From assembly GCF_965230055.1 (NCBI RefSeq), contig NZ_OZ245939.1: 64,000 bases of DNA. One strand, 5' to 3'. The position numbers and the translations under genes are program-made. Of this stretch, positions 16,472-31,536 are shown one piece after another. The notes under the pieces were generated by a model, which was not told the DNA's origin, made no database searches, and saw only the letters and a list, made by a program, of their open reading frames with translations. Origin of the DNA: Hoeflea sp. GTDB lineage: Bacteria > Pseudomonadota > Alphaproteobacteria > Rhizobiales > Rhizobiaceae. The stretch's first letter is position 1. Each line of letters opens with the position of its first letter.

Positions 16472-16756
16472 CATGGATAAGAAACTTTCAAAAAATCAGG
16501 GTGTTGCTGGCCCTGTGGCCAACAAGCCCGGGCATTGGTTTGTGGCAGGGCTTGTACTGGCGCGGGATAAAACCGGTCATGCAGCCGGACACCGGCGACT
16601 CATGCCGTGCGGACCCGAAGGGGTTTTCGGGGCAAGTACGGGCGTTCCGGCCGGGCCCGTCATCAATTGTCGCTATTCATGGCCCGAATCTGGGCTTACC
16701 CCGCGCCCCTGTTCCCGGTTAAGTCAAAACGCAGACAGAATTCCGGAGCGCAGGCA

Positions 16757-17959
16757 TTGCAACCATTTGGCGGCAGTTTCACCCAACAGGAAGGTCTTGG
16801 CGAGGACGTGATAGACGCGGTTGCAGATGTGCTCCGGTCCGGCCGTCTGCATCGCTACAACACGGCCCCGGGAGAAGTCTCAAGAGTCGCGTTGCTCGAA
16901 AAAGCCTATGCCGCCTACCAGGGTGCCCGTTATTGTCTGGCTTGCGCCTCAGGCGGCTATGCCATGGCAATCGCGCTCCGCGCTGCGGGCCTTGAGCCCG
17001 GAGAGACCGTCCTGACCAACGGCTTCACCCTTGCGCCCGTCCCCGGAGCGATCGTCTCCGCAGGCGGAAAGCCGCTTCTGGTCGAAATCACCGATGACCT
17101 TGTCATCGATTTCGAGGACCTCGAGCAAAAGGCGGTTTCGAGCCAGGCACGCTTTCTGCTCCTGTCCAACATGCGAGGCCATCTGGCCGATATGGAACGG
17201 CTGGATGAGATCGTCCGTAAACTCGGACTGATCCTGATCGAGGACTGCGCCCACACGATGGGGGCCTCTTGGAACGGAGTGAAAAGCGGCAATTTCGGAC
17301 TTGCAGGGTGTTTCTCCACCCAGACCTACAAGCATCTCAATTCGGGCGAGGGCGGATTGCTGACTTCGAACGACCCGGAATTCATGGCCCGTGCCATCGT
17401 GCATTCGGGATCCTACATGCTCTATGAGCGCCATGGCGCGGCGCCGGAGCGGGAGGTTTTCGAAGGGATCCGCCTGGACACGCCGAACATGTCCGGGCGC
17501 ATGGACAATCTGCGCGCCGCCGTTCTTCTGCCGCAACTCGACCGTCTCGACGAATCGATTGGGCGCTGGAACCAGCGCTACCGCACGGTTGAAGCCGGCC
17601 TGGCGGGTGTTCAGGGCCTCGTTCTTCGCCATCGGCCGCAGAAGGAGCATTTCGTCGGTAGTTCGATCCAATTCCGGATCCCGGGTCTGACCTCGGAACG
17701 TGCGATGGAATTCGTCTCCGATGCGGGCAGTCTCGGGGTGGAACTGAAGTGGTTCGGTGCCGACGCACCGGTTGGATTCACCTCCAACCATCACAGTTGG
17801 CGCTACGTTGACCCGCAGCTGCTTCCCGCGACCGACACGGTTCTTTCAACCCTGTTCGACATGCGTTTGCCGTTGACTTTTTCGCTTGAGGATTGCCGTC
17901 ATGTGGCCGCGATCATCGCCCATTGCGCAGAACGGCAGCTCCTGGCCAGAGCCTCCTGA
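16757..17959 (+). CDS. DegT/DnrJ/EryC1/StrS family PLP-dependent aminotransferase
   Basis: LIEDCAH, FSTQTYKHLNSGEGG (Schiff-base Lys); probable TTG start at 16757 after GGAG. Confidence 0.85.
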   Translation: MQPFGGSFTQQEGLGEDVIDAVADVLRSGRLHRYNTAPGEVSRVALLEKAYAAYQGARYCLACASGGYAMAIALRAAGLEPGETVLTNGFTLAPVPGAIVSAGGKPLLVEITDDLVIDFEDLEQKAVSSQARFLLLSNMRGHLADMERLDEIVRKLGLILIEDCAHTMGASWNGVKSGNFGLAGCFSTQTYKHLNSGEGGLLTSNDPEFMARAIVHSGSYMLYERHGAAPEREVFEGIRLDTPNMSGRMDNLRAAVLLPQLDRLDESIGRWNQRYRTVEAGLAGVQGLVLRHRPQKEHFVGSSIQFRIPGLTSERAMEFVSDAGSLGVELKWFGADAPVGFTSNHHSWRYVDPQLLPATDTVLSTLFDMRLPLTFSLEDCRHVAAIIAHCAERQLLARAS

Positions 17960-17993: not shown

Positions 17994-18045
17994 GAGCCTT
18001 GCATTGCGGATGTGGATGGTAGCGCGCAATCAAGAGGAGTGTCCC

Positions 18046-19830
18046 ATGCCCAGAATGACCACCGAGGAAGCTTTCGTCAAAGTTCTCCAGATGCATGGTA
18101 TCGAACATGCCTTCGGCATCATCGGTTCGGCTATGATGCCGGTATCGGACCTGTTCCCGAAGGCGGGAATTACCTTCTGGGACTGTGCTCACGAGACCAA
18201 TGCGGGTCTGATGTGCGACGGTTTCATTCGTTCCACCGGCAAGATGGCCATGGCGATCGCCCAGAACGGCCCCGGCGTCACCGGTTTTGTCACGCCCGTC
18301 AAGACGGCCTACTGGAACCACACCCCCATGCTGCTGATCACCCCGCAGGCGGCCAACAAGACCATCGGCCAAGGCGGTTTCCAGGAAATGGAGCAGATGC
18401 GGCTGTTTGCCGATTGCGTCTGTTATCAGGAAGAGGTGCGTGATCCCTCCCGTATTCCCGAAGTGCTGAACCGGGTCATCATGAAGGCATGGCGTGGATC
18501 GGCGCCCGCGCAGATGAACATCCCGCGCGACATGTGGACCCAGGTCATCGATGTCGAGCTCCCGCAGGTGGTCACCTTCGAACGTCCCGGCGGTGGAGAG
18601 GAAGCCATTGCAAAGGCGGCCGAACTCCTGTCGGAGGCGCGATTCCCGGTTATCCTGTCGGGTGCCGGCGTTGTGCTTTCCGGTGCGATCCCGGATCTGG
18701 TCAAGCTTGCCGAGCGGCTCGATGCCCCGGTCTGCTCGAATTACCAGCATAATGACAGTTTCCCCGGTTCGCACCGTCTGGCGGTCGGCCCCCTCGGCTA
18801 CAACGGCTCCAAAGCAGCAATGGAGTTGATCGCAAAGGCCGATGTCGTGCTGGCGCTTGGCACACGGCTCAACCCGTTCTCCACATTGCCTGGCTACGGA
18901 ATCGACTACTGGCCCAAGGATGCGAAGGTCATCCAGGTCGATATCAATGCCGACCGGATCGGCCTGACCAAGAAGGTGACTGTCGGCATTGAGGGCGACG
19001 CCACCAAGGTGGCGCGCGCGATCCTTGCCCAATTGACCGACGGTGCCGGTGATGCGGACCGCGATGAGCGCAAGAACCTGGTATCTCTGACCAAGTCGCG
19101 CTGGGCGCAGGAACTGTCCTCGCTCGACCACGAGGAAGATGATCCGGGGACCGTCTGGAACGAGGAATCCCGCAAGCGCGACGCCGATCTGATGTCGCCC
19201 CGTCAGGCTTGGCGGGCCATTCAGTCGGCATTGCCCAAGGACGCAATCATTTCCTCCGACATCGGAAACAATTGCGCCATCGGCAACGCCTATCCGACCT
19301 TCGAGCAGGGCCGCAAATATCTCGCGCCCGGCCTGTTCGGGCCCTGCGGCTACGGGTTTCCCTCGATTCTCGGCGCCAAGATCGGCCAGCCCGACGTCCC
19401 GGTGGTGGGTTTTGCCGGCGACGGCGCCTTCGGTATTTCCATGAACGAGATGACTGCCTGCGGCCGAGATGAGTGGCCGGCAATCACCATGGTGATCTTC
19501 CGCAACTACCAGTGGGGCGCCGAAAAGCGCAACACGACGCTCTGGTACGACAACAATTTCGTCGGCACCGAGCTCGATCGCGACACTTCCTATGCGGCAA
19601 TCGCCGAGGCCTGCGGCGCCACCGGCGTGGTTGTCGCGAGCCAGCAGGCGCTCACCGAGGAACTCGGCAAGGCCGTCGAGCGGCAGATGAAGGACGGCGA
19701 GACAACCTTCATCGAGGTCATGCTCAACCAGGAGCTGGGCGAGCCGTTCCGCCGGGATGCGATGAAGAAGCCTGTGGTCGTCGCCGGTATCAGCCGTGAC
19801 GACATGCGCCCGCAGCAGGGCGCTGTTTGA
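18046..19830 (+). CDS. xsc: Sulfoacetaldehyde acetyltransferase (ThDP-dependent)
   Basis: MTTEEAFVKVLQMHGIEHAFGIIGSAMM, GDGAFGISMNE, NYQWGAEKRN; taurine cluster context. Confidence 0.96.
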   Translation: MPRMTTEEAFVKVLQMHGIEHAFGIIGSAMMPVSDLFPKAGITFWDCAHETNAGLMCDGFIRSTGKMAMAIAQNGPGVTGFVTPVKTAYWNHTPMLLITPQAANKTIGQGGFQEMEQMRLFADCVCYQEEVRDPSRIPEVLNRVIMKAWRGSAPAQMNIPRDMWTQVIDVELPQVVTFERPGGGEEAIAKAAELLSEARFPVILSGAGVVLSGAIPDLVKLAERLDAPVCSNYQHNDSFPGSHRLAVGPLGYNGSKAAMELIAKADVVLALGTRLNPFSTLPGYGIDYWPKDAKVIQVDINADRIGLTKKVTVGIEGDATKVARAILAQLTDGAGDADRDERKNLVSLTKSRWAQELSSLDHEEDDPGTVWNEESRKRDADLMSPRQAWRAIQSALPKDAIISSDIGNNCAIGNAYPTFEQGRKYLAPGLFGPCGYGFPSILGAKIGQPDVPVVGFAGDGAFGISMNEMTACGRDEWPAITMVIFRNYQWGAEKRNTTLWYDNNFVGTELDRDTSYAAIAEACGATGVVVASQQALTEELGKAVERQMKDGETTFIEVMLNQELGEPFRRDAMKKPVVVAGISRDDMRPQQGAV

Positions 19831-19874
19831 GAACGGGGGAAGCCGGGCCGGGAGCCTCTGCGGATGCAGGGGCT

Positions 19875-21338
19875 CTAGAGCCTTTCGATGGCGTCGGCGA
19901 TGATATCGATCCCGGCGGGGATCTTGGCGCTGTCGATGGAAGAGTAGGCAATCCGGTAATAACGGTTCCCGTCTTCCGGGTTGGCAAAGAAGAAATGGCC
20001 GGGCTCGATTAATACGCCCCGCTCCCTGACCGCACTGGCCAGGGCACGGGCGTCCATACTTTCGGGCGTTTGCATCCAGAAACTTGAGCCGCCCGAGACG
20101 TCCGCGCCGGCGATCTGAAGGCCGCGCCGGTCGATGGCGTCCTGCATCACCTCGCGCCGCCGCCTGTAGGTTTGCCCCATGCGTGCGACAAGCGCATCGA
20201 AATGGCCGAGCGACAGGAAATTCGCGACCGTGCGCTGAAGGTGGCCCGGCGGATGCCGCACCACAACCATTCTGAGTGCCCGGGCCTCGCGGATGAAGGT
20301 TTCGGATCCGACGATGTAGCCGAGCCTCAGACCGGGAAACAGCGATTTCGAGAACGAACCGACATAAATCACCCGGCCCTCCTCATCGAGCGACTTGAGC
20401 GCCGGCGCCGGCGGATGGAGAAACGACATCTCGAACTCGTAGTCGTCCTCGACGATCAGGAAATCGTGCCGCGCGGCCATTTCGAGCAGTTCCTGGCGCC
20501 TTTCGAGCGGCATCGTCACGCTGGTGGGGCAATGGTGGCTCGGCGTGGTGAAAACGACGTCCGTTTCCGGCGGGAGAGAATCGAGACACATGCCGGAATG
20601 ATCCACTGGCACGTTGACGACATTGCAGCGCGCCAGATTGAGCGCTGCGCGCAGCCCCGGATAGCCCGGGTTCTCCATCACTGCGGTCCGGCGTTGGTTG
20701 AGCAGCACCTGTGCGGCCAGCCACAGCGCATTCTGGCCCCCCATCGTGATCAGGATCTGTTCGGGCTTGGCCTGGATGCCGCGCCGCGGCAGGGTGTTGA
20801 GCGCGATGTACTTGATCAGCTCCGGGTCGTCGCGTTCGTAGCTGTCGGCGGTGACGGCCTCGAATTCGCGCTTGCCCAGCGCCTGGAGCGCGCATTGCCG
20901 CCAGTTGCTGTGATCGAAGATCTTCTCGTCGGCCTGCCCGTAGATGAACGGATAGGGGTAGCTGCGCCAGTCGACGGGCTTTTCGACGAGCACCTGTCCG
21001 GAATAGCGTTGGGCAATGGCCCTGCCCCAGTCCACCGAATCCGATGTTACCCCGCCAAGCGATTCAAATCGCGTCCGCTGCGGCGCGGTCGGCGAGACAT
21101 AATATCCCGACCGGCCCTTCGCGATCAGGTAGTCGTCGGAGACCAGTTCGCTGTAGGCCAGTGTCACCGTGATGCGGCTGATGCCGAGATGAGCCGCAAG
21201 CTTCCGGCTGGACGGAAGCTTGGCTCCGGGATTGAAACGTCCCGAAAGCACGCCCTCGCTGATCATCCGCTGGATCTTCTGCTGCAGCGTGCCTTCGAAT
21301 TTCGGGTCGAGAAAAAACGTGTCTATCGGGATCGACAT
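19875..21338 (-). CDS. tauR: MocR/GntR-family PLP-dependent regulator TauR
   Basis: N-terminal wHTH (LPSSRKLAAHLGISRITV) plus aminotransferase-like domain (SFSKSLFPGLRLG); lies between xsc and tpa. Confidence 0.9.
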   Translation of the reverse strand: MSIPIDTFFLDPKFEGTLQQKIQRMISEGVLSGRFNPGAKLPSSRKLAAHLGISRITVTLAYSELVSDDYLIAKGRSGYYVSPTAPQRTRFESLGGVTSDSVDWGRAIAQRYSGQVLVEKPVDWRSYPYPFIYGQADEKIFDHSNWRQCALQALGKREFEAVTADSYERDDPELIKYIALNTLPRRGIQAKPEQILITMGGQNALWLAAQVLLNQRRTAVMENPGYPGLRAALNLARCNVVNVPVDHSGMCLDSLPPETDVVFTTPSHHCPTSVTMPLERRQELLEMAARHDFLIVEDDYEFEMSFLHPPAPALKSLDEEGRVIYVGSFSKSLFPGLRLGYIVGSETFIREARALRMVVVRHPPGHLQRTVANFLSLGHFDALVARMGQTYRRRREVMQDAIDRRGLQIAGADVSGGSSFWMQTPESMDARALASAVRERGVLIEPGHFFFANPEDGNRYYRIAYSSIDSAKIPAGIDIIADAIERL

Positions 21339-21465
21339 AAAGACATCCAGCCGGTTTTGGCCAGCATATCCTTGAGCTTGCCGCTTAGGAAGGGCCGCCC
21401 GGATCGCGCCGACGGCCTCGCGGGCGGCGGTGACAGTCGGGGATGCCGAGGCCCCCGTCGTTCGG

Positions 21466-22860
21466 TCAGCCGAACACCCGCTTCAGCGCCTGGTCGACGC
21501 TGTCGGTGATCCGGTCGATATCGTCGGCCGTGGCGATCAGCGCCGGGCTGAAGCAAAGCGTGTTGTTGAACCCGGGAAGCGACCGGTTGGTCGCACCGAT
21601 GATCACGCCCTGCGCCATGCAGTCAGCAACCACCGCCTGGACCTTCTTCTCCTCGGCCGGTTCGCGGCTTGTGCGGTCGGAGACGAGCTCTGCACCGACG
21701 AACAGCCCCTTGCCGCGAACATCTCCGATGACGGCGTGCCGTTCCTGCAGCGTGCAAAGATTGTCCATCATCCGTGCGCCCATTGCTTGCGTGTTTTCGA
21801 TCAGGTTCTCATTCTCGATAATCCGCATGTTCTCGAGCGCTGCCGCCGGACCGGCCGCGCATCCGCCAAAGGTCGAGATATCGCGAAAATAGGACATTGG
21901 ATCGGAAGCATCGTCCTTGAACTGCTCGAAGACGGCTTCCGTCGTCACCGTGCAGGAAATGGCCGCGTAACCTGAAGCAACGCCCTTCGCCATGGTCACG
22001 AAATCCGGTTGGATCCCGTAATGCTGATAGCCGAACCATTCACCGGTGCGGCCCACTCCGCACACGACCTCGTCGATATGCAACAGGATATCGTACTTGC
22101 GGCAGATCTCCTGGACCCGAGGCCAGTAGCCTTCGGGAGGGGTGATGACGCCGCCACCCGCAGTGATCGGCTCCAGGCAGAGCCCGCCCACGGTATCGGG
22201 GCCTTCGCGAAGGATGACCTCTTCGATCGCGTTGGCGGCGGCTTCGCCGTAGCTCTCGGCGTCCGGGTACTGGCTGCGGTATTCGAGGCAATGCGGAACC
22301 ATCACGAAGCCCGGCGCCATCGGCCCGTACTGCTCGGCGCGCTGCGGCTGGCCGCCGGCCGAAAGCGTGGCGAGCGTCGTGCCGTGATAGTCGCGGTCGC
22401 GGTAAAGGATCTTGTATTTCCGGCCGCCATGATGGCGATGCGAGATCTGGCGGATCATCTTGAAGGCCTTCTCGTTCGCCTCCGAGCCGGAATTGGAATA
22501 GTAGACCCGGCTCATCCCCGGCATCTTTTCGATCAGTTTCTGCGCGAACAGGGCGCCCGGAATGGAGCCGGCGCTGTTAGCGAAATAGTTCATTTTCACC
22601 AGCTGGTCGCGCACAGCATCGGCAATGCTCTCGCGCCCGTAGCCTACATTGACCGTCCAGACCCCGCCGGAGACCGCATCGAGGTGCTCCTTGCCGGTCG
22701 CGTCCCAGACGCGCATGCCGCGGCCCTCGACCATGATGCGGGGATCGATCGTCTCAAACGGCTTGTGCTGGATGAGATGATGCCACACATGGCTCCGGTC
22801 GGCATCAATGACGGCCTGGATGTCGTTCGGCTGGATCTGGGACTGCATCGGAAAATTCAT
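21466..22860 (-). CDS. tpa: Taurine-pyruvate aminotransferase (class III)
   Basis: LDAVSGGVWTVNVGYGR, SGSEANE, DEVVCGVGRTG, MAKGVASGY; divergent from tauABC. Confidence 0.9.
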   Translation of the reverse strand: MNFPMQSQIQPNDIQAVIDADRSHVWHHLIQHKPFETIDPRIMVEGRGMRVWDATGKEHLDAVSGGVWTVNVGYGRESIADAVRDQLVKMNYFANSAGSIPGALFAQKLIEKMPGMSRVYYSNSGSEANEKAFKMIRQISHRHHGGRKYKILYRDRDYHGTTLATLSAGGQPQRAEQYGPMAPGFVMVPHCLEYRSQYPDAESYGEAAANAIEEVILREGPDTVGGLCLEPITAGGGVITPPEGYWPRVQEICRKYDILLHIDEVVCGVGRTGEWFGYQHYGIQPDFVTMAKGVASGYAAISCTVTTEAVFEQFKDDASDPMSYFRDISTFGGCAAGPAAALENMRIIENENLIENTQAMGARMMDNLCTLQERHAVIGDVRGKGLFVGAELVSDRTSREPAEEKKVQAVVADCMAQGVIIGATNRSLPGFNNTLCFSPALIATADDIDRITDSVDQALKRVFG

Positions 22861-22935
22861 GGCTGGCCTCTTTCCTTGCGAGGGCGGCGGAACACGCCCC
22901 CAACCTGACAATCACTTCGGTTCCGGTCAATCCGA

Positions 22936-23216: not shown

Positions 23217-24209
23217 ATGAAACTCGCAACGAGAATGTCCTCATTGCTGGCCGGTATCGCCATGGTTGCGGCGGCATCGGCTGCCAAGGCCGAGGAAATC
23301 ACCGTCGCCTACTTCCTGGAATGGCCGATGCCGTTTCAGTACGCCAAAGCCAAGGGACTTTACGACGAAGCCCTGGGCATGAAGGTCAACTGGAAGTCCT
23401 TCGACGCGGGAACCGCAATGTCGGCTGCGATGGCTTCCGGCGACGTGCATATTTCGGTCAGCCAGGGCGTGCCGCCTTTCGTCGTCGCCACATCGGCCGG
23501 TCAGGACCTTCAGGTCGCCGACATTGCCGTGGTCTACAACGACAACGACAACTGCGTCGTCAAGGCCGAGCTCGAAATCGACAAGGACAGTGCCAAGGAA
23601 CTTGAAGGCAAGAAGGTGGGCGTGCCGATCGGCACCGCGGCCCATTACGGCTTCCTCAAGCAGATGGAATATTTCGAGGTCGATGTCTCGACCATGGAAA
23701 TCGTCGACATGGCTCCGCCGGATGGTGCGGCCGCCTTTGCCCAGGGCAGCCTCGACATGGTGTGCGGCTGGGGCGGCTCCCTGCGGCGCATGATGGAGCA
23801 CGGCAACGTGCTTCTTACCGGCGCTGAAAAGGACGAGATCGGCATTTCCGTCTATGACGTGACCTCGGTTCCGGCTTCGTTCGCCGCCGAGAACGGCGAT
23901 ATCCTTGCGAAGTTCCTCAAGGTCACTGCCGACATGAACGCCAAGTGGCTCACCGACAAGGAAGAGATGCTTCCCGTCATCGCCAAGGACGCGGGCATGT
24001 CCGAAGAAGATGCCGCTGCAACGCTGGACGGTTTCCAGTTCCCCACGGTCGAGGCGCAGCTCTCCGACAAGTGGCTCGGCAAGGCGACACCCGAATTCCT
24101 CAAGGGTGTGGGCGACTTCTTCAAGGAGCAGGGCAACATCCCGTCGTCCCGCGACAGCTATGACGCTGCGGTCAACACCAGCGCGCTGGAGTCCGCCGCG
24201 CAGATGTAA
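23217..24209 (+). CDS. tauA: Taurine ABC transporter substrate-binding protein
   Basis: Signal peptide ending AKA/EE; SFDAGTAMSAAMASG, GTAAHY, DMAPP; GGGAG RBS. Confidence 0.9.
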   Translation: MKLATRMSSLLAGIAMVAAASAAKAEEITVAYFLEWPMPFQYAKAKGLYDEALGMKVNWKSFDAGTAMSAAMASGDVHISVSQGVPPFVVATSAGQDLQVADIAVVYNDNDNCVVKAELEIDKDSAKELEGKKVGVPIGTAAHYGFLKQMEYFEVDVSTMEIVDMAPPDGAAAFAQGSLDMVCGWGGSLRRMMEHGNVLLTGAEKDEIGISVYDVTSVPASFAAENGDILAKFLKVTADMNAKWLTDKEEMLPVIAKDAGMSEEDAAATLDGFQFPTVEAQLSDKWLGKATPEFLKGVGDFFKEQGNIPSSRDSYDAAVNTSALESAAQM

Positions 24210-24261: not shown

Positions 24262-24296
24262 GCCCGGCAGTCCTATTCCCCGTGATTGGAGCAAAG

Positions 24297-25103
24297 ATGG
24301 GCGATCTGGTTATCGACCAACTGTCCATGCGCTTTGATCTGCCGAATGGCGGATCGGTACAGGCGCTCAAGGACGTATCCCTCAATCTTGCCAAGGGCGA
24401 ACTGCTCTCGGTTCTCGGCCCGTCCGGCTGCGGCAAGACCACCCTCCTGAACATCGTCGCGGGCTTTCTCGCCCCTACCGGCGGCACGGTTTCGCTCAAC
24501 GGCCAGACTGTCACCGGACCCGGCGCGGAACGCGGAATGGTGTTCCAGCAGGGCGCGCTTTTCGAGTGGATGAGCGTGCGGCGGAACATCGCGTTCGGGC
24601 CTGACATGGCCGGAAAGCCGGCTTCCGAGACCAAACCGATCGTCGACAGGCTCTTGCGCATTGTCGGCCTGCAGGATTTCGGCGACAAGATGATCTACGA
24701 GCTCTCAGGCGGCATGCAGCAGCGCGTGGCGCTGGCCCGTTGCCTCGCCAATGATCCCGACGTGATCCTGATGGACGAACCTCTCGGGGCGCTTGACGCA
24801 CTCACCCGCGAGAAGATGCAGGGACTTGTGCTCAAGCTCTGGAAGGAAACGGGCAAGACCATCATCCTTATTACCCACTCCGTCGAGGAAGCGCTGCTTC
24901 TGGGCGAGCGGCTGCTGGTGATGGCGCCGCGGCCGGGACGGATCCACAAGGAATACCGGCTTCCGTTCGCGGAAATGGGCGTCGGCCAGGATCTCAGGAC
25001 CGTCAAGAAGGTGCCCGAATTCGGAGAGCGCCGCGAGGAAATCCTCGGCATGATCTGGGACATGGAAGAAGAAATCATGGGCCGGCAGGAGGAGCCGGCA
25101 TGA
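24297..25103 (+). CDS. tauB: Taurine ABC transporter ATP-binding protein
   Basis: GPSGCGKTT, LSGGMQQRV, LMDEPLGALD; ATG 24297 after GGAG. Confidence 0.92.
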   Translation: MGDLVIDQLSMRFDLPNGGSVQALKDVSLNLAKGELLSVLGPSGCGKTTLLNIVAGFLAPTGGTVSLNGQTVTGPGAERGMVFQQGALFEWMSVRRNIAFGPDMAGKPASETKPIVDRLLRIVGLQDFGDKMIYELSGGMQQRVALARCLANDPDVILMDEPLGALDALTREKMQGLVLKLWKETGKTIILITHSVEEALLLGERLLVMAPRPGRIHKEYRLPFAEMGVGQDLRTVKKVPEFGERREEILGMIWDMEEEIMGRQEEPA

Positions 25104-26368
25104 TCGTCCTTCTGATCTACATTGCGCTCTTTGCAATCGCCTATATCGCCTATCGTGCCTGGGACCGCTCCCGCGAGCACCTGCATGACTTTTCGAGCCT
25201 CAAGACCGTTACCTTCGGTGACGAGAGCGCCGTCTCGGCCAACCGCTTTGCCTCGGTCGTCTCCGTGGTGGCGCTGTTCGCGATCTGGGGCGCCTTCACC
25301 GGCTCGGTGATCACGCCGCTGCATGCCCCCGGACCGTTCGTCGGTGACTCGAGCTTCGAATACACGGCCCGGAACGCGGCCGGGGACACCGACGATGCGA
25401 CCGTTGCAATCCGTGTCTACCGGGTGGGGGAGGAAGTGCCCCTGCCTGAAGTCAGCGAGAATGCGGATGGTTTCGCGGTCGACGATGCCCTCAAGATCGG
25501 CGCCTGGCGTTCGAGCCTGAGCCGGCCCTACGAGAACGACACCGGCGGCAACGAGGACGGCTATGCCATCGTCGCCATCAACGGCCAGCCGATTGCGCCG
25601 GGCGAAACGGTTCCCTTCGCCGATGGCGAGGTGACCATGACATCCAAGGGCAGCCTTTCCATCCGGCCGGAAACCGGCTGGCAGATGGAACCGATCTGGC
25701 TGCCCGCGCCCGAGGCCGTGGTTTACAGGCTCGGCGAAATCGCCACCGAGGGCTACAAGAACTTCTCGCTCTGGGAACATCTTGGCTATTCGCTCGGTCG
25801 CGTGATCGCGGGCTTCCTGCTCGGCTCGATCATCGGCATCCCGCTCGGCTATGCCATGGGCCTGTCCAACTGGTTCCGCGGCTGGTTCGACCCGATCGTG
25901 GAATTCATGCGGCCGGTTCCGCCTCTGGCGCTCATCCCGCTGATCATCATCTGGTTCGGCATCGGCGAGGAGGGCAAGGTCATTCTGCTGTTCCTGGCGG
26001 CGCTGTGGATCATGACGATTGCCGCCCGCGCCGGCGTGTCGGGTGTTCGCATATCCAAGGTGCATGCCGCCTATTCGCTCGGCGCCTCGAAATCGCAGAT
26101 CCTGCGGCACGTCATCGTCCCCAATTCGCTGCCGGAAATCTTCACCGGCGCGCGGGTGGCCATGGGCGTGTGCTGGGGAACCGTGGTCGCCGCCGAACTG
26201 GTGGCCGCGGATCGCGGCGCGGGCATGATGATCGTCAACGCCTCAAAGTTCCAGCTCACCGACATCGTCATTCTCGGCATCATTCTCATCGGGATCATCG
26301 GCTACGGCATCGACATCCTGATGCGCATGGCCGAAAAATGGCTCGTGCCGTGGAAGGGACGGGGCTGA
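25100..26368 (+). CDS. tauC: Taurine ABC transporter permease with an inserted Ig/cadherin-like periplasmic module
   Basis: TauC/SsuC core (LPAPEAV, MRPVPPLALIPL, AAYSLGAS..VIVPNSLP, AELVAA) plus an insertion of about 115 aa; ATGA overlap with tauB. Confidence 0.9.
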   Translation: MIVLLIYIALFAIAYIAYRAWDRSREHLHDFSSLKTVTFGDESAVSANRFASVVSVVALFAIWGAFTGSVITPLHAPGPFVGDSSFEYTARNAAGDTDDATVAIRVYRVGEEVPLPEVSENADGFAVDDALKIGAWRSSLSRPYENDTGGNEDGYAIVAINGQPIAPGETVPFADGEVTMTSKGSLSIRPETGWQMEPIWLPAPEAVVYRLGEIATEGYKNFSLWEHLGYSLGRVIAGFLLGSIIGIPLGYAMGLSNWFRGWFDPIVEFMRPVPPLALIPLIIIWFGIGEEGKVILLFLAALWIMTIAARAGVSGVRISKVHAAYSLGASKSQILRHVIVPNSLPEIFTGARVAMGVCWGTVVAAELVAADRGAGMMIVNASKFQLTDIVILGIILIGIIGYGIDILMRMAEKWLVPWKGRG

Positions 26369-26398
26369 ATCTTCATCGCGGACCAGGTCTGCCGCAAT

Positions 26399-26431
26399 AA
26401 AAAACCGCCGGCGAGAGCCGGCGGTTTTCTT
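26399..26431. terminator. Bidirectional intrinsic terminator between tauC and gyrB
   Basis: A6-ccgccggc-gaga-gccggcgg-T4CTT between convergent genes. Confidence 0.9.
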
Positions 26432-26476
26432 GTTTGAAGCAGGGAAGGCAGTCCGCAGACGGGACTTCGCCGGGCC

Positions 26477-29980: not shown

Positions 29981-30141
29981 GGATATTCCCCCTCCGAAAC
30001 ATGATCGATGATCGATCATATCATGAAGAGCGGAATCCGAAAGGAAGAATATTCAGAAACCGTACAATGATGCTTTCGTCACATGCTTTGAAATTGACCT
30101 TGCGATTTCCGGCATTAACTCCGATGTGAAAGGATTTGCCA

Positions 30142-31536
30142 ATGGATATGCCAGTTCGGCCTTTTGTCCCGCCGGCGCCGGTTCCGCGCGACACCCCGCC
30201 CTCTCGTTTGGAGATCATGCGCACTGTGATGCGCAATCCGCTGGAGCTTTGGGGAGAACCGTCGTTCCGGCTGAAATGGATGAAGACGAAGTTCTTCAAC
30301 GAGCGAACGCTGATCGCCAACCATCCGGGTCTGGTCCGGCATGTACTGGTCGACAACGTGCAGAACTACAGCATGGCCCGGATCCGGCAACTGATCCTGA
30401 GGCCTATCCTGCGTGACGGGCTGCTGACCGCCGAAGGCGATATCTGGAAACGCTCGCGCAAGGCCATGGCTCCCGTTTTCACGCCCCGGCACGCCAGGGG
30501 CTTTGCCGAACAGATGCTGGAACAGTCGCTGGCGTTCAAGACGAGATATGCCAGGGCGGCTGACGAGGGCGAGGTCCGCGACATTGCGGTCGACATGACC
30601 GAACTGACCTTCGACATCCTGTCGGCGACGCTTTTCTCCGGCCATGTTGCAGGCACCGAGGAAGAGTTCGCAGGCGATATCGAGCGCCTTCTGTCAACCA
30701 TGGGAAGGGTCGATCCGATGGATCTGCTCAAGGCGCCGCGCTGGATTCCGAGGGTCCGCAGGATGCTGGGGCAGGGTGTGCTCGCCAAGTTCCGGAACAT
30801 CGTCAAGCAGACGATGGCCAATCGCCAGGCCATGATGCGCGATGATCCGGACAATGTTCCCGAGGATTTTCTCACCCTCCTGATCCGGTTGCACGGACCC
30901 GGTGGCCTTACGCTCGACGAGATTGAGGACAACATCATCACCTTCATCGGCGCGGGCCACGAGACCACGGCCCGTGCGCTTGGCTGGACGCTGTACTGTC
31001 TCGCCAACTCGCCGGAAGACAGGCAAAAGGTCGAAGCCGAGATCGATGATGTCGTTGCCCGGGAGCCCGATCCGGTCAAATGGCTCGACATGATGCCCTG
31101 GACGCGGGCCGCCTTCGAGGAGGCGATGCGGCTCTATCCGCCGGCGCCGTCGATCAACCGCGCGGCGATCCGGGATGATACCTGGCAGGATGAAACGGGC
31201 GAGACGGTCACCATCGAAGCGGGCACCACGGTGCTGGTGATGCCCTGGACCCTGCACCGCCATACGCTTTTCTGGGATCGGCCGGAGGCCTTCATGCCGT
31301 CCCGGTTCCTGCCCGAAAACCGCGGCAGCATCGATCGTTTCCAGTATCTGCCCTTCGGCGTCGGCCCCCGGATCTGCATCGGCGCGACCTTTGCGTTGCA
31401 GGAGGCGGTCATCGCGCTGGGCGCGCTGCTGTCGGAATTCCGTTTTGATTGCGTCGCCGAGACCCGGCCCTGGCCGGTGCAGAAACTGACCACTCAACCC
31501 GACGGCGGTCTGCCGATGCGCATCAGCCGGAGATAA
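30142..31536 (+). CDS. Cytochrome P450
   Basis: I-helix AGHETT, ExxR (EAMR), FMPSRF, heme motif FGVGPRICIG. Confidence 0.96.
   Translation: MDMPVRPFVPPAPVPRDTPPSRLEIMRTVMRNPLELWGEPSFRLKWMKTKFFNERTLIANHPGLVRHVLVDNVQNYSMARIRQLILRPILRDGLLTAEGDIWKRSRKAMAPVFTPRHARGFAEQMLEQSLAFKTRYARAADEGEVRDIAVDMTELTFDILSATLFSGHVAGTEEEFAGDIERLLSTMGRVDPMDLLKAPRWIPRVRRMLGQGVLAKFRNIVKQTMANRQAMMRDDPDNVPEDFLTLLIRLHGPGGLTLDEIEDNIITFIGAGHETTARALGWTLYCLANSPEDRQKVEAEIDDVVAREPDPVKWLDMMPWTRAAFEEAMRLYPPAPSINRAAIRDDTWQDETGETVTIEAGTTVLVMPWTLHRHTLFWDRPEAFMPSRFLPENRGSIDRFQYLPFGVGPRICIGATFALQEAVIALGALLSEFRFDCVAETRPWPVQKLTTQPDGGLPMRISRR

What the first reader, a model, noticed from the sequence alone, without database searches (positions are those of the whole stretch)
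25337..25678. Circularly permuted cadherin/Ig-like module inserted in the taurine ABC permease TauC
Seen: between the second N-terminal TM helix (about residues 50-71) and the canonical TauC core (LPAPEAV...) is an acidic, beta-rich segment of about 114 aa: FVGDSSFEYTARNAAGDTDDATVAIRV, a linker, then FAVDDAL..PYENDTGGNEDGYAIVAINGQPIAPGETVPFADGEVTMTSKGSLSIRPETG. Established: VCBS/cadherin-like (Big_9-type) adhesin repeats run AVDD..NDT..ITAVNG..G.VT...G.L.Y.P..GF.G.DSF.YT..D..G.T.TATV.I.V. Here the last third of that pattern comes first and the first two-thirds second. Inference: the module is a circular permutant cut at the P..GF loop, which would place both termini together and suit insertion in a membrane loop. 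It could be a Ca2+-binding docking module for TauA, a dimerisation module or a surface-sensing element. Ordinary TauC/SsuC permeases lack it.
Basis: partly seen in the sequence, partly recalled or inferred. Interest (0 to 1): 0.72.

Follow-up and report, generated by a model that had tools for sequence, protein, structure and literature searches.

The report
Rearranged adhesin domain inside taurine transporter
The membrane subunit of a marine bacterium's taurine uptake pump carries, in a loop facing the periplasm, one repeat copied from a giant adhesin but cut in a shifted register, so that it forms a circularly permuted Ig-like domain; this design is conserved in about 600 or more species and has not been described or tested.

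Summary
ORF 25100-26368 (422 aa) is the TauC-like permease of a tauABC operon that sits beside xsc, a MocR-type tauR and tpa. Two N-terminal helices precede a 114-aa acidic, all-beta module (residues 80-193). The canonical core starts at about residue 196.

- **Permuted order.** In native order only residues 76-104 match Pfam Big_9, at 18.8 bits. With the two pieces swapped the match is 36.2 bits (E 1e-8), and this holds in 25 of 25 homologues.
- **Junction.** A profile of the swapped order aligns with a solved RTX-adhesin repeat straight across the re-joined junction.
- **Origin.** In native order the module aligns end to end with single periods of giant tandem adhesins. It is one repeat period taken in a shifted register.
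- **Fold.** AlphaFold gives one compact beta domain (pLDDT 92, pTM 0.82). The strongest coevolution signal links the two pieces. Foldseek found no significant match, so the fold is not directly proven.
- **Location and spread.** Topology parity puts the module in the periplasm. At least 596 species genomes carry the long form; rhizobial and E. coli TauC lack it.

The function is untested. My best guess is a rigid periplasmic post that docks the binding protein TauA, like the MalF P2 loop. I found no literature on it.

The parts
23217..24209 (+). tauA-like periplasmic substrate-binding protein. The start is taken at MKLATR, followed by a signal-peptide-like N-terminus.
   Evidence: The best NCBIfam match is the taurine ABC substrate-binding protein, at 157.5 bits, below the equivalog cut-off. 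It aligns with E. coli TauA structures (6ssy and others) over its whole length, E 1e-26, with only small indels.
24282..25103 (+). tauB-like ATPase. Its stop codon overlaps the permease start codon (ATGA).
   Evidence: NCBIfam taurine ABC ATP-binding subunit at 283.8 bits, and Pfam ABC_tran. The overlap is read directly from the sequence.
25100..26368 (+). Long-form TauC-like permease, 422 aa
   Evidence: ORF. TauC scores 234.6 bits on residues 196-421, and BPD_transp_1 covers 246-414. The AlphaFold core matches the NrtB/CmpB permeases.
25103..25177 (+). Extra N-terminal transmembrane helix 'TM0' (residues 2-26), predicted N-terminus-out. It is absent from canonical TauC.
   Evidence: AlphaFold helix 2-26. 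Hydropathy peak at 1-19. Positive charges follow the helix (sequence reading). It is missing in S. meliloti TauC.
25196..25234 (+). Nearly invariant motif SLKTVTFGDESAV (residues 33-45) in the predicted cytoplasmic loop between TM0 and TM1
   Evidence: At least 90% conserved at K35-V45 in 82 sequences. The pattern KTVTFGDE alone retrieved 596 confirmed relatives.
25244..25309 (+). TM1 (residues 49-70), equivalent to the first helix of canonical TauC. It runs from inside to outside.
   Evidence: AlphaFold helix 49-67. Hydropathy peak at 53-71. Parity with the cytoplasmic EAA loop (inference and established ABC importer topology).
25310..25336 (+). N-terminal stem of the module (residues 71-79, ITPLHAPGP), highly conserved
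   Evidence: H75, P77, G78 and P79 are invariant in 81 sequences. H75 is coupled with Q195 and W200.
25337..25420 (+). Piece 1 of the module (residues 80-107): the F-G beta hairpin, which is the last third of a Big_9/cadherin-like repeat
   Evidence: Matches Big_9 profile positions 63-88. Strands 82-91 and 97-107 have pLDDT 96-98. Hairpin couplings D83-R105 and R91-T97.
25421..25471 (+). Linker (residues 108-124), variable in sequence but fixed in length. It corresponds to the former inter-repeat linker.
   Evidence: 38% mean pairwise identity. There are 18-20 residues between V106 and A126 in all 81 sequences, against an adhesin median of 14. It is modelled as ordered coil.
25472..25678 (+). 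Piece 2 of the module (residues 125-193): strands A to E, which are the first two thirds of the repeat. It includes the A.DD and ND motifs.
   Evidence: In the re-ordered sequence this piece matches Big_9 profile positions 24 to about 63. Strands are at 129-134, 139-141, 156-160, 170-173, 176-180 and 186-190. The coupling R91-V158 links it to piece 1.
25679..25720 (+). C-terminal stem and the conserved WQMEPIWLPAPEAV segment that starts the canonical core
   Evidence: 87-92% identity. It aligns with S. meliloti GWIKPLFLPSPLAV.
18004..19830 (+). xsc, sulfoacetaldehyde acetyltransferase (context: taurine dissimilation)
   Evidence: NCBIfam score 1038 bits, above the cut-off.
19875..21338 (-). 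MocR-family regulator (tauR-like)
   Evidence: NCBIfam MocR-like matches. It is conserved next to tpa and tauABC in 38 of 80 loci.
21466..22911 (-). Class III aminotransferase (tpa-like, taurine-pyruvate aminotransferase), divergent from tauA
   Evidence: NCBIfam aminotransferase subfamily at 465 bits. It lies next to tauABC in 50 of 80 loci.

Best explanation
**What it is (well supported).** The permease of a taurine-dissimilation TauABC importer has gained an N-terminal extension. It has three parts: an extra helix (TM0, N-terminus out), an invariant cytoplasmic motif, and an insertion of about 125 residues directly after the canonical first helix.
- The insertion is one roughly 104-residue period of a Big_9/cadherin-like tandem adhesin array, taken in a register shifted by about two thirds of a repeat.
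- The F-G hairpin therefore comes first and strands A-E second.
- The former inter-repeat linker, 18-20 residues here, runs back along the domain so that the hairpin completes its own sandwich. This makes a circularly permuted Ig-like domain.
- The cut lies in the E-F loop, so both ends sit together at the membrane-proximal end. The inherited acidic A.DD / ND / DD cluster sits at the distal tip.

**How it most likely works (inferred).** Conserved stems and a family-specific AWRS motif at the base mount the domain rigidly on each TauC protomer. The domain would stand as a periplasmic post roughly 40 A high (estimated from typical Ig-domain dimensions, not measured on the model). I propose that the two posts of the TauC dimer flank the docking site of the binding protein TauA and contact it. 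This would hold or orient TauA at the transporter, as the Ig-like MalF P2 loop does for MalE, and would favour capture of scarce taurine in seawater. The distal acidic cluster probably binds Ca2+ for stability, as in the parent adhesins.
For: **Identity and origin.**
- Native against swapped Pfam and NCBIfam scores.
- An alignment with the solved RTX repeat 36gk_A across the junction.
- End-to-end alignment of the native order with single periods of giant adhesins, for example P0125 at 400-504, 504-608, 608-712 and 712-816.
- All single-copy hits are TauC fragments.

**Single compact fold.**
- AlphaFold gives pLDDT 93-98 in the full protein, and pLDDT 91.9 with pTM 0.82 for the domain alone.
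- The strongest DCA coupling, R91-V158, joins strand F to strand C. T97-V158 and D99-A159 agree with it.
- The ends are coupled (S84-I188, H75-Q195, H75-W200), and so is the distal cluster (D129-N146/D147).
- Five pairs exceed the maximum of every column-shuffled control.

**Periplasmic location.** The helix count from TM1 to the EAA loop fits the established cytoplasmic position of that loop.

**Constraint.**
- Present in at least 596 species genomes.
- dN/dS is 0.12 for the insert and 0.04 for the core.
- TauC-specific invariant residues (A135, W136, R137, L140, K183 and the stems) differ from the adhesin consensus.

**Taurine role.**
- The window carries xsc, tauR and tpa next to tauABC.
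- tauABC is conserved in 76-80 of 80 loci and tpa in 50 of 80.
- R. pomeroyi tauABC mutants fail to grow on taurine (PMC10130141).

Against: **Fold.**
- Foldseek found no significant structural neighbour for the domain (best E 0.28), so the Ig-like sandwich is not shown by a structural match.
- I had no model coordinates and no permutation-aware aligner.
- DCA cannot tell contacts within one chain from contacts in a swapped dimer. It rests on an effective depth of only about 121 sequences, and phylogeny was not controlled.

**Linker.** The linker is longer than in most adhesin repeats, but not uniquely so: about 10% of repeats have 18 or more residues.

**Function.**
- Nothing here tests contact with TauA.
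- TauA shows no matching extra element relative to E. coli TauA.
- The residues conserved specifically in TauC lie at the base of the domain, by my reading of the topology. That points to mounting rather than to a distal binding surface.
- Conservation could reflect only the need for the loop to fold.

**Link to experiment.** I did not verify that R. pomeroyi SPO0676 is of the long form.
Confidence: 0.4

Rival explanations
1. Domain-swapped dimerisation module. In the TauC homodimer, the F-G hairpin of one protomer completes strands A-E of the other. The excised out-of-register repeat would then act as a periplasmic clasp that stabilises the dimer rather than as a self-contained domain.
For: An out-of-register piece of a tandem array naturally pairs a hairpin with a neighbouring domain. 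DCA contacts such as R91-V158 fit intermolecular pairing equally well. The canonical transporter is a TauC homodimer (established for this family; compare the NrtB/CmpB hits).
Against: The AlphaFold monomer closes the domain within one chain with pTM 0.82. The linker is held at 18-20 residues, long enough to fold back. The ends of one module are coupled with each other. From general knowledge of type I importers, TM1 lies at the periphery of the dimer, so the two insertion points should be far apart.
Confidence: 0.1
2. A structural passenger with no role in transport. An adhesin repeat was captured once, became a stable periplasmic loop, and is retained only because misfolding or deletion would disturb insertion of TM1 and TM2.
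For: The module evolves faster than the core: 53-58% against 84% mean pairwise identity, and dN/dS 0.12 against 0.04. Most of its invariant residues are the fold-determining residues it shares with adhesin repeats. Canonical TauC works without it (E. coli and S. meliloti).
Against: It is kept with fixed length and register in at least 596 species across Alpha- and Gammaproteobacteria. A set of TauC-specific invariant residues (W136, R137, L140, K183 and the stems) is not explained by the parent fold. It always co-occurs with TM0 and the invariant cytoplasmic motif, which suggests a co-adapted unit.
Confidence: 0.2
3. A Ca2+- or ionic-strength-dependent regulatory or stabilising element. The inherited acidic cluster binds Ca2+, and folding or rigidity of the post tunes transporter activity or stability in seawater. 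It would not bind TauA directly.
For: The A.DD, ND and DD motifs shared with Ca2+-dependent adhesin repeats are conserved at 86-100%. The net charge is -12. The named hosts are mostly marine genera. RTX adhesin repeats coordinate Ca2+ near these positions (PMC7493085, as listed).
Against: In the parent arrays the Ca2+ sites lie between two consecutive domains, and that geometry cannot be fully kept in a single permuted domain (inference). No test of Ca2+ binding was possible here. Acidity is common in marine periplasmic proteins.
Confidence: 0.2

Closest known systems
MalF P2 loop of the E. coli maltose importer MalFGK2
   Same: Both are large folded domains inserted in a periplasmic loop of a type I ABC importer membrane subunit. 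[quoted passage not shown] It is the best functional analogue.
   Different: No sequence or Foldseek similarity was found. P2 lies between TM3 and TM4 of a heterodimeric CUT1-family permease. This module follows TM1 of a NitT/TauT-family permease that presumably forms a homodimer, so two copies are expected. It is derived from an adhesin repeat and is circularly permuted. Binding to TauA is not shown.
Big_9 (PF17963), bacterial cadherin-like and 'tandem-95' repeats of giant RTX-type adhesins (for example the solved 'RTX protein' 36gk_A)
   Same: Homology is clear. The two share the motifs F.GD.SF.YT..D..G..D.ATV.V.V, A.DD, ND, G.V.....G.L.F.P..G and the repeat length.
   Different: This is a single copy inside a membrane permease rather than tens of tandem copies in a secreted fibre. 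The order of the pieces is swapped, so the native sequence falls below the Pfam threshold. The linker is 18-20 residues against a median of 14. The family-specific residues A135, W136, R137, L140 and K183 replace the adhesin consensus.
Canonical TauC (E. coli, 275-residue model; S. meliloti pSymB, 275 aa)
   Same: The core from residue 196 to the C-terminus matches, with 46-50% identity to S. meliloti. The operon order tauA-tauB-tauC is the same.
   Different: Canonical TauC has a short cytoplasmic tail, then TM1, then directly the 'LFLPSP' segment. It has no TM0, no KTVTFGDESAV motif and no periplasmic module. The window protein scores below NCBI's TauC equivalog cut-off (234.6 against 342).
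NrtB and CmpB permeases of the cyanobacterial NrtBCD and CmpBCD transporters (8wm7, 9ua1 and related entries)
   Same: These are the closest solved structures for the membrane core (Foldseek E 4e-6 to 2e-4, 25-29% identity). They belong to the same NitT/TauT family.
   Different: They are 246-265 residues long and show nothing corresponding to residues 1-48 or 72-200.
Permeases with a fused substrate-binding domain (OpuA type)
   Same: This is another way of keeping the binding protein at the transporter. OpuA appears among the structural neighbours of the core.
   Different: In OpuA the binding domain itself is fused. Here TauA remains a separate gene, and the added domain is an Ig-like scaffold.

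Membership tests
NitT/TauT-family ABC importer permease (TauC) | BPD_transp_1 membrane domain with an EAA loop | tested here: met
   PF00528 scores 94.6 bits on residues 246-414. The model core matches NrtB and CmpB.
NitT/TauT-family ABC importer permease (TauC) | Score above NCBI's TauC equivalog cut-off | tested here: not met
   NF007545 scores 234.6 bits against a cut-off of 342. It is still the best family, ahead of SaoP and SsuC. The protein is therefore TauC-like and not a strict equivalog of E. coli TauC.
NitT/TauT-family ABC importer permease (TauC) | Operon with a TauA-type binding protein and a TauB-type ATPase, and linkage to taurine catabolism | tested here: met
   tauA-like and tauB-like genes lie directly upstream. 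xsc, a MocR regulator and tpa are adjacent. The arrangement is conserved in related loci.
NitT/TauT-family ABC importer permease (TauC) | Transports taurine | not testable with these tools
   The only support is indirect: R. pomeroyi tauABC mutants lose growth on taurine (PMC10130141). I did not verify that the R. pomeroyi permease is of the long form.
Big_9 / bacterial cadherin-like Ig domain | Sequence match above the Pfam gathering score, in native order | tested here: not met
   18.8 bits against 23.6, and only profile positions 63-88 are matched.
Big_9 / bacterial cadherin-like Ig domain | Sequence match above the gathering score after swapping the two pieces | tested here: met
   36.2 bits, E 1.1e-8, profile positions 24-88. 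It holds in 25 of 25 homologues, best E 9.6e-14.
Big_9 / bacterial cadherin-like Ig domain | Ig-like beta-sandwich fold | tested here: inconclusive
   The AlphaFold model is all-beta, with pLDDT 91.9 and pTM 0.82. DCA couplings fit F-G and F-C pairing. Foldseek gave no significant match.
Big_9 / bacterial cadherin-like Ig domain | Occurs as tandem copies in secreted surface proteins | tested here: not met
   It is a single copy in a permease, and the window holds no other copy. All single-copy hits are TauC fragments.
Big_9 / bacterial cadherin-like Ig domain | Ca2+ binding | not testable with these tools
   The acidic motifs are conserved, but binding cannot be computed here.
Circular permutant of a known domain | Two segments match complementary, non-overlapping parts of the parent profile in swapped order | tested here: met
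   Residues 76-104 match profile positions 63-88. Residues 125-193 supply positions 24 to about 63.
Circular permutant of a known domain | Continuous alignment with an unpermuted relative across the re-joined junction | tested here: met
   Profile positions 47-96 align with 36gk_A residues 254-304 through '...PekG|fvGdtsFtYt...'.
Circular permutant of a known domain | New termini adjacent, and the pieces packed into one domain | tested here: inconclusive
   The evidence is supportive but indirect: pTM 0.82 and the couplings R91-V158, S84-I188, H75-Q195 and H75-W200. No coordinates were available.
MalF-P2-like periplasmic docking domain | Folded domain in a periplasmic loop of a type I importer membrane subunit | tested here: met
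   Location follows from helix parity with the EAA loop (plus established topology).
MalF-P2-like periplasmic docking domain | Homology to MalF P2 | tested here: not met
   No MalF chain appears among the PDB sequence or fold hits.
MalF-P2-like periplasmic docking domain | Contacts the substrate-binding protein | not testable with these tools
   No multimer prediction or binding assay was available.

The most novel reading that the evidence does not exclude
The permuted module is a dedicated, Ca2+-stiffened clamp that keeps TauA bound to the transporter through the whole cycle. A three-gene ABC importer would then behave like a system with a tethered binding protein, as an adaptation to nanomolar substrate in seawater. 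Together with TM0 and the invariant cytoplasmic motif KTVTFGDESAV, it might also pass the docking state across the membrane to TauB. It would in addition be a natural case of an insertable Ig-like domain made by excising one period of an adhesin array out of register.
Probability: 0.15. Interest if true: 0.75.

Novelty: new variant of a known kind. Interest (0 to 1): 0.55.

Why it matters
- **Ecology.** Taurine is a major organic sulfur and carbon currency between phytoplankton and marine bacteria. The long-form TauC appears to be the permease of the taurine-dissimilation TauABC in roseobacters, Hoeflea, Roseibium and the Thioglobus group.
- **Transporter mechanism.** If the module docks TauA, it would be a second, independently evolved case of the MalF-P2 principle, in a different ABC family. 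It would give a structural handle on how high-affinity uptake is achieved in seawater.
- **Protein evolution.** It shows a simple route to a circular permutant. Taking exactly one period of a tandem repeat in a shifted register brings both ends to the same side of the domain, so the domain can be inserted into a membrane loop.
- **Annotation.** The native order falls below the Pfam threshold, so the domain is mostly missed or only partly flagged, and the protein is labelled as a generic permease.

Tried and rejected
- **Foldseek, whole model.** It found only the permease core, matching NrtB and CmpB.
- **Foldseek, domain-only model.** Nothing was significant: best E 0.28, with partial low-probability matches to Ig V domains and to a Marinomonas adhesin fragment. 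I treat this as uninformative rather than negative, because Foldseek needs the same strand order. It does mean the fold is not directly confirmed.
- **Model coordinates.** They are not available in the sandbox, so no contact map or permutation-aware alignment could be made. I used DCA instead.
- **Linker length.** I expected a clear lengthening of the linker relative to adhesin arrays. The difference is real but modest: 18-20 residues against a median of 14, and about 10% of adhesin repeats are as long. I do not rest the case on it.
- **A matching element in TauA.** I looked for an extra element relative to E. coli TauA and found only small indels.
- **Pairwise MAFFT with S. meliloti TauC.** It mis-aligns the S. 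meliloti TM1 with the beta strands. Only the part from 'GW..P..LP.P' onwards is meaningful.
- **Protein database search.** The search with the N-terminal 207 aa returned almost only truncated or frameshifted members. Full-length homologues came from the genome collection instead.
- **Literature.** Six searches found no description of this module.
- **Signal-peptide reading of TM0.** Rejected. There is no positively charged n-region, and cleavage would invert the parity with the EAA loop.
- **Other copies.** The window holds no other copy of the module.
Full report
**1. What is at the coordinates**

- ORF 25100..26368 (+) encodes 422 aa. Its ATG overlaps the stop codon of the upstream ATPase gene (ATGA).
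- Residues 196-421 match TauC best (NF007545, 234.6 bits), ahead of SaoP, SsuC and NrtB, but below the equivalog cut-off of 342. Pfam BPD_transp_1 covers 246-414.
- The two genes upstream are a TauA-like binding protein and a TauB-like ATPase.
- Further upstream lie xsc (1038 bits), a MocR-family regulator and a class III aminotransferase in the tpa position. This is a taurine-dissimilation locus.
- gyrB follows on the other strand.

**2. The permuted pattern is real**

- In native order, Big_9 (PF17963) matches only residues 76-104, on profile positions 63-88, at 18.8 bits. The gathering score is 23.6.
- With the pieces swapped (125-193, then 80-107), one stretch covers profile positions 24-88 at 36.2 bits (E 1.1e-8). 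Cadherin_5 and NCBI's tandem-95 repeat also improve.
- I repeated this on 25 diverse homologues. Permuted, Big_9 matches 25/25 (best E 9.6e-14) and Cadherin_5 25/25. Native, Big_9 reaches a best E of 2.2e-7 and Cadherin_5 matches 13/25.
- A profile of the permuted order finds the solved 'RTX protein' 36gk_A at E 2.9e-6. The alignment runs without a break through the re-joined junction (...G.LNF.PekG|FvGdtSFtYTa..a.G.tDdATVtV.V). The native profile gives 15.7 bits on the first piece only.

**3. Where it came from**

- A phmmer search of residues 70-202 in native order against 1.84 billion representative proteins gave 323 hits. There were two kinds: fragments of long TauC, and giant tandem-repeat proteins, for example P0121 (6787 aa, 56 matched stretches).
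- In the giant proteins the native order aligns end to end with single periods. In P0125 these are 400-504, 504-608, 608-712 and 712-816, each starting at 'F.GD.SFEY' and ending at '...LSF.PDAG'.
- The module is therefore exactly one period of such an array, cut in a register shifted by about two thirds of a structural domain. This is the classical duplication-and-truncation route to a circular permutant.
- Every hit with a single stretch also carries TauC flanks. I found no other protein family with a single permuted copy.

**4. Is it one folded domain?**

- AlphaFold2, with an 80-82 sequence alignment, gives pLDDT 93-98 for residues 70-200 in the full protein. The domain alone has mean pLDDT 91.9 and pTM 0.82.
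- Strands lie at 82-91 and 97-107 (F, G). An ordered coil spans 108-128. Further strands lie at 129-134, 139-141, 156-160, 170-173, 176-180 and 186-190.
Foldseek against the PDB gave nothing significant (best E 0.28). Foldseek needs the same order of elements in query and target, so this is what a permutant would give, but it is not positive evidence either.
- I therefore ran mean-field DCA on 171 non-identical family sequences (effective number 121).
  - The strongest coupling of all is R91-V158, between the end of strand F and strand C, that is, between the two pieces. T97-V158 and D99-A159 agree with it.
  - D83-R105, S85-A103 and R91-T97 give the F-G hairpin register.
  - S84-I188, H75-Q195 and H75-W200 couple the two ends of the insert.
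  - D129-N146 and D129-D147 couple the A.DD and ND motifs.
  - Five pairs, including R91-V158, exceed the largest value seen in 15 column-shuffled controls.
- Read against the standard Ig strand directions, these contacts are self-consistent.
  - The FG loop, the BC loop, the start of A and the start of C meet at one end.
  - The cut E-F loop, and hence both termini, lie at the other end.
- DCA cannot separate contacts within a chain from contacts in a swapped dimer, and phylogeny was not controlled.

**5. Location**

- The model and the hydropathy profile give seven helices. These are TM0 (2-26), TM1 (49-67), then after the module TM2 (224-252), TM3 (255-287) and TM4 (290-314). The EAA region (318-340) follows, then TM5 and TM6.
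- The EAA loop is cytoplasmic in all type I importers (established knowledge). The TM1-TM2 connection that holds the module is therefore periplasmic.
- TM0 then has its N-terminus outside. This fits the absence of positive charge before it and the R19, R23, R25, K35 cluster after it (sequence reading).
- S. meliloti TauC (275 aa) goes straight from TM1 to 'GWIKPLFLPSPLAV'. The window protein has TM1, then the 125-residue insertion, then 'GWQMEPIWLPAPEAV'.

**6. Distribution and constraint**

Of these, 596 were confirmed as relatives.
- The best 80 are almost all 418-424 aa (three ORF calls are longer, 442-537 aa). They come from Hoeflea (96% identity to the window), many Rhodobacterales, Roseibium/Labrenzia, Rhodospirillales, and the gammaproteobacterial Thioglobus/Pseudothioglobus group.
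- tauA and tauB precede the gene in 76-79 of 80 loci. tpa is adjacent in 50 of 80.
- Among 1319 plasmid records with a relative of the permease, only 6 have the long form.
- Mean pairwise identity by region: core 84%, stems 71-87%, cytoplasmic loop 75%, F-G piece 58%, A-E piece 53%, linker 38%.
- Among Hoeflea orthologues dN/dS is about 0.12 for the insert and 0.04 for the core. dS is close to saturation for the insert.
- Module length is 109-116 residues. The V106-A126 distance is always 18-20, against a median of 14 (5-95%: 8-19) in 481 adhesin repeats.
- I compared the family with 406 adhesin repeats.
  - Most invariant residues are the shared fold and Ca2+-type motifs: G82, F86, Y88, D98, V106, A126, D129, N146, D147, G162, G176, G184, P190.
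  - A135, W136, R137, L140, K183, G110, G124 and the stems (H75, Q195, M196, P198, W200) are specific to TauC.
  - By the topology above, the AWRS motif lies in the A-B turn at the membrane-proximal end. W136 is weakly coupled to Q195. This suggests a rigid mount on the stems.

**7. Mechanism**

- *Shown or strongly supported:* a single, conserved, periplasmic, adhesin-derived beta module in permuted order, in the permease of a taurine ABC importer.
- *Inferred:* it forms a post roughly 40 A high on each protomer (a size estimated from typical Ig domains, not measured on the model). The inherited acidic cluster sits at the tip.
- *Proposed by analogy:* it contacts and holds TauA. The analogy is the MalF P2 loop, an Ig-like periplasmic domain that binds MalE with micromolar affinity and stays bound through the cycle (PMC6906923).
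- TauA itself shows no matching extra element, and nothing here tests the contact. I put about 0.85 on the structural identity and about 0.4 on the docking function.
- The rivals are a swapped-dimer clasp, a Ca2+-dependent stabiliser, and a tolerated passenger.

**8. Novelty**

- Six full-text searches found no description of this module.
- Public records call the protein 'ABC transporter permease subunit' or 'taurine transport system permease protein'.
- Some precomputed annotations flag a partial Big_9 hit.
- An accessory periplasmic Ig-like domain on an importer permease is a known principle (MalF). New here are the family (NitT/TauT), the position after TM1, the adhesin origin, the circular permutation, and the accompanying TM0 with its cytoplasmic motif. 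I rate it a new variant of a known kind, of moderate interest.

Noticed in passing
window 25103-25234 (TauC residues 2-45): The long form also has an extra N-terminal helix (TM0). Between TM0 and TM1 lies a nearly invariant motif SLKTVTFGDESAV, predicted to be cytoplasmic and more conserved than the Ig-like module. Canonical TauC has neither. AlphaFold confidence is low there (pLDDT 53-65). The motif could contact TauB or a regulator.
   Followed up: partly
window 18004-22911: A taurine-dissimilation cluster lies beside tauABC: xsc (+), a MocR-family regulator (-) and a tpa-like class III aminotransferase (-). No pta was seen in the part I scanned.
   Followed up: partly
window 26395-26435: A G+C-rich hairpin (ccgccggc-gaga-gccggcgg) has an A-run on one side and a T-run on the other. 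It lies between the convergent tauC and gyrB genes and looks like a bidirectional intrinsic terminator.
   Followed up: no
L081 2562-5700 (Ruegeria sp. SCSIO 43209 plasmid NZ_CP065362.1): A 71%-identical long-form permease, with its binding protein and ATPase genes, sits on a 512-kb plasmid. Its neighbours are a LysR regulator, D-cysteine desulfhydrase and an amino acid racemase, not tpa or xsc. The long form may therefore also serve a related substrate.
   Followed up: no
P0183, P0189, P0236 and P0103: More distant family members keep both pieces of the module but differ in loops. One clade has a linker about 10 residues longer (EDGKPLRIPPKPE...) and 'RYGS' in place of AWRS. P0103 has an extra loop after 'NGEE'. 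These natural variants could help map which surfaces matter.
   Followed up: no
one search hit list: The large protein database returned almost only truncated or frameshifted members of this family (lengths 120-363 aa), although full-length genes are common in genomes. This is probably a property of the collection or of short metagenome contigs, not biology.
   Followed up: no
window 16607-17959 and 30136-31536: A DegT/PseC-type sugar aminotransferase-like ORF and a cytochrome P450-like ORF flank the region. They appear unrelated to the finding.
   Followed up: no
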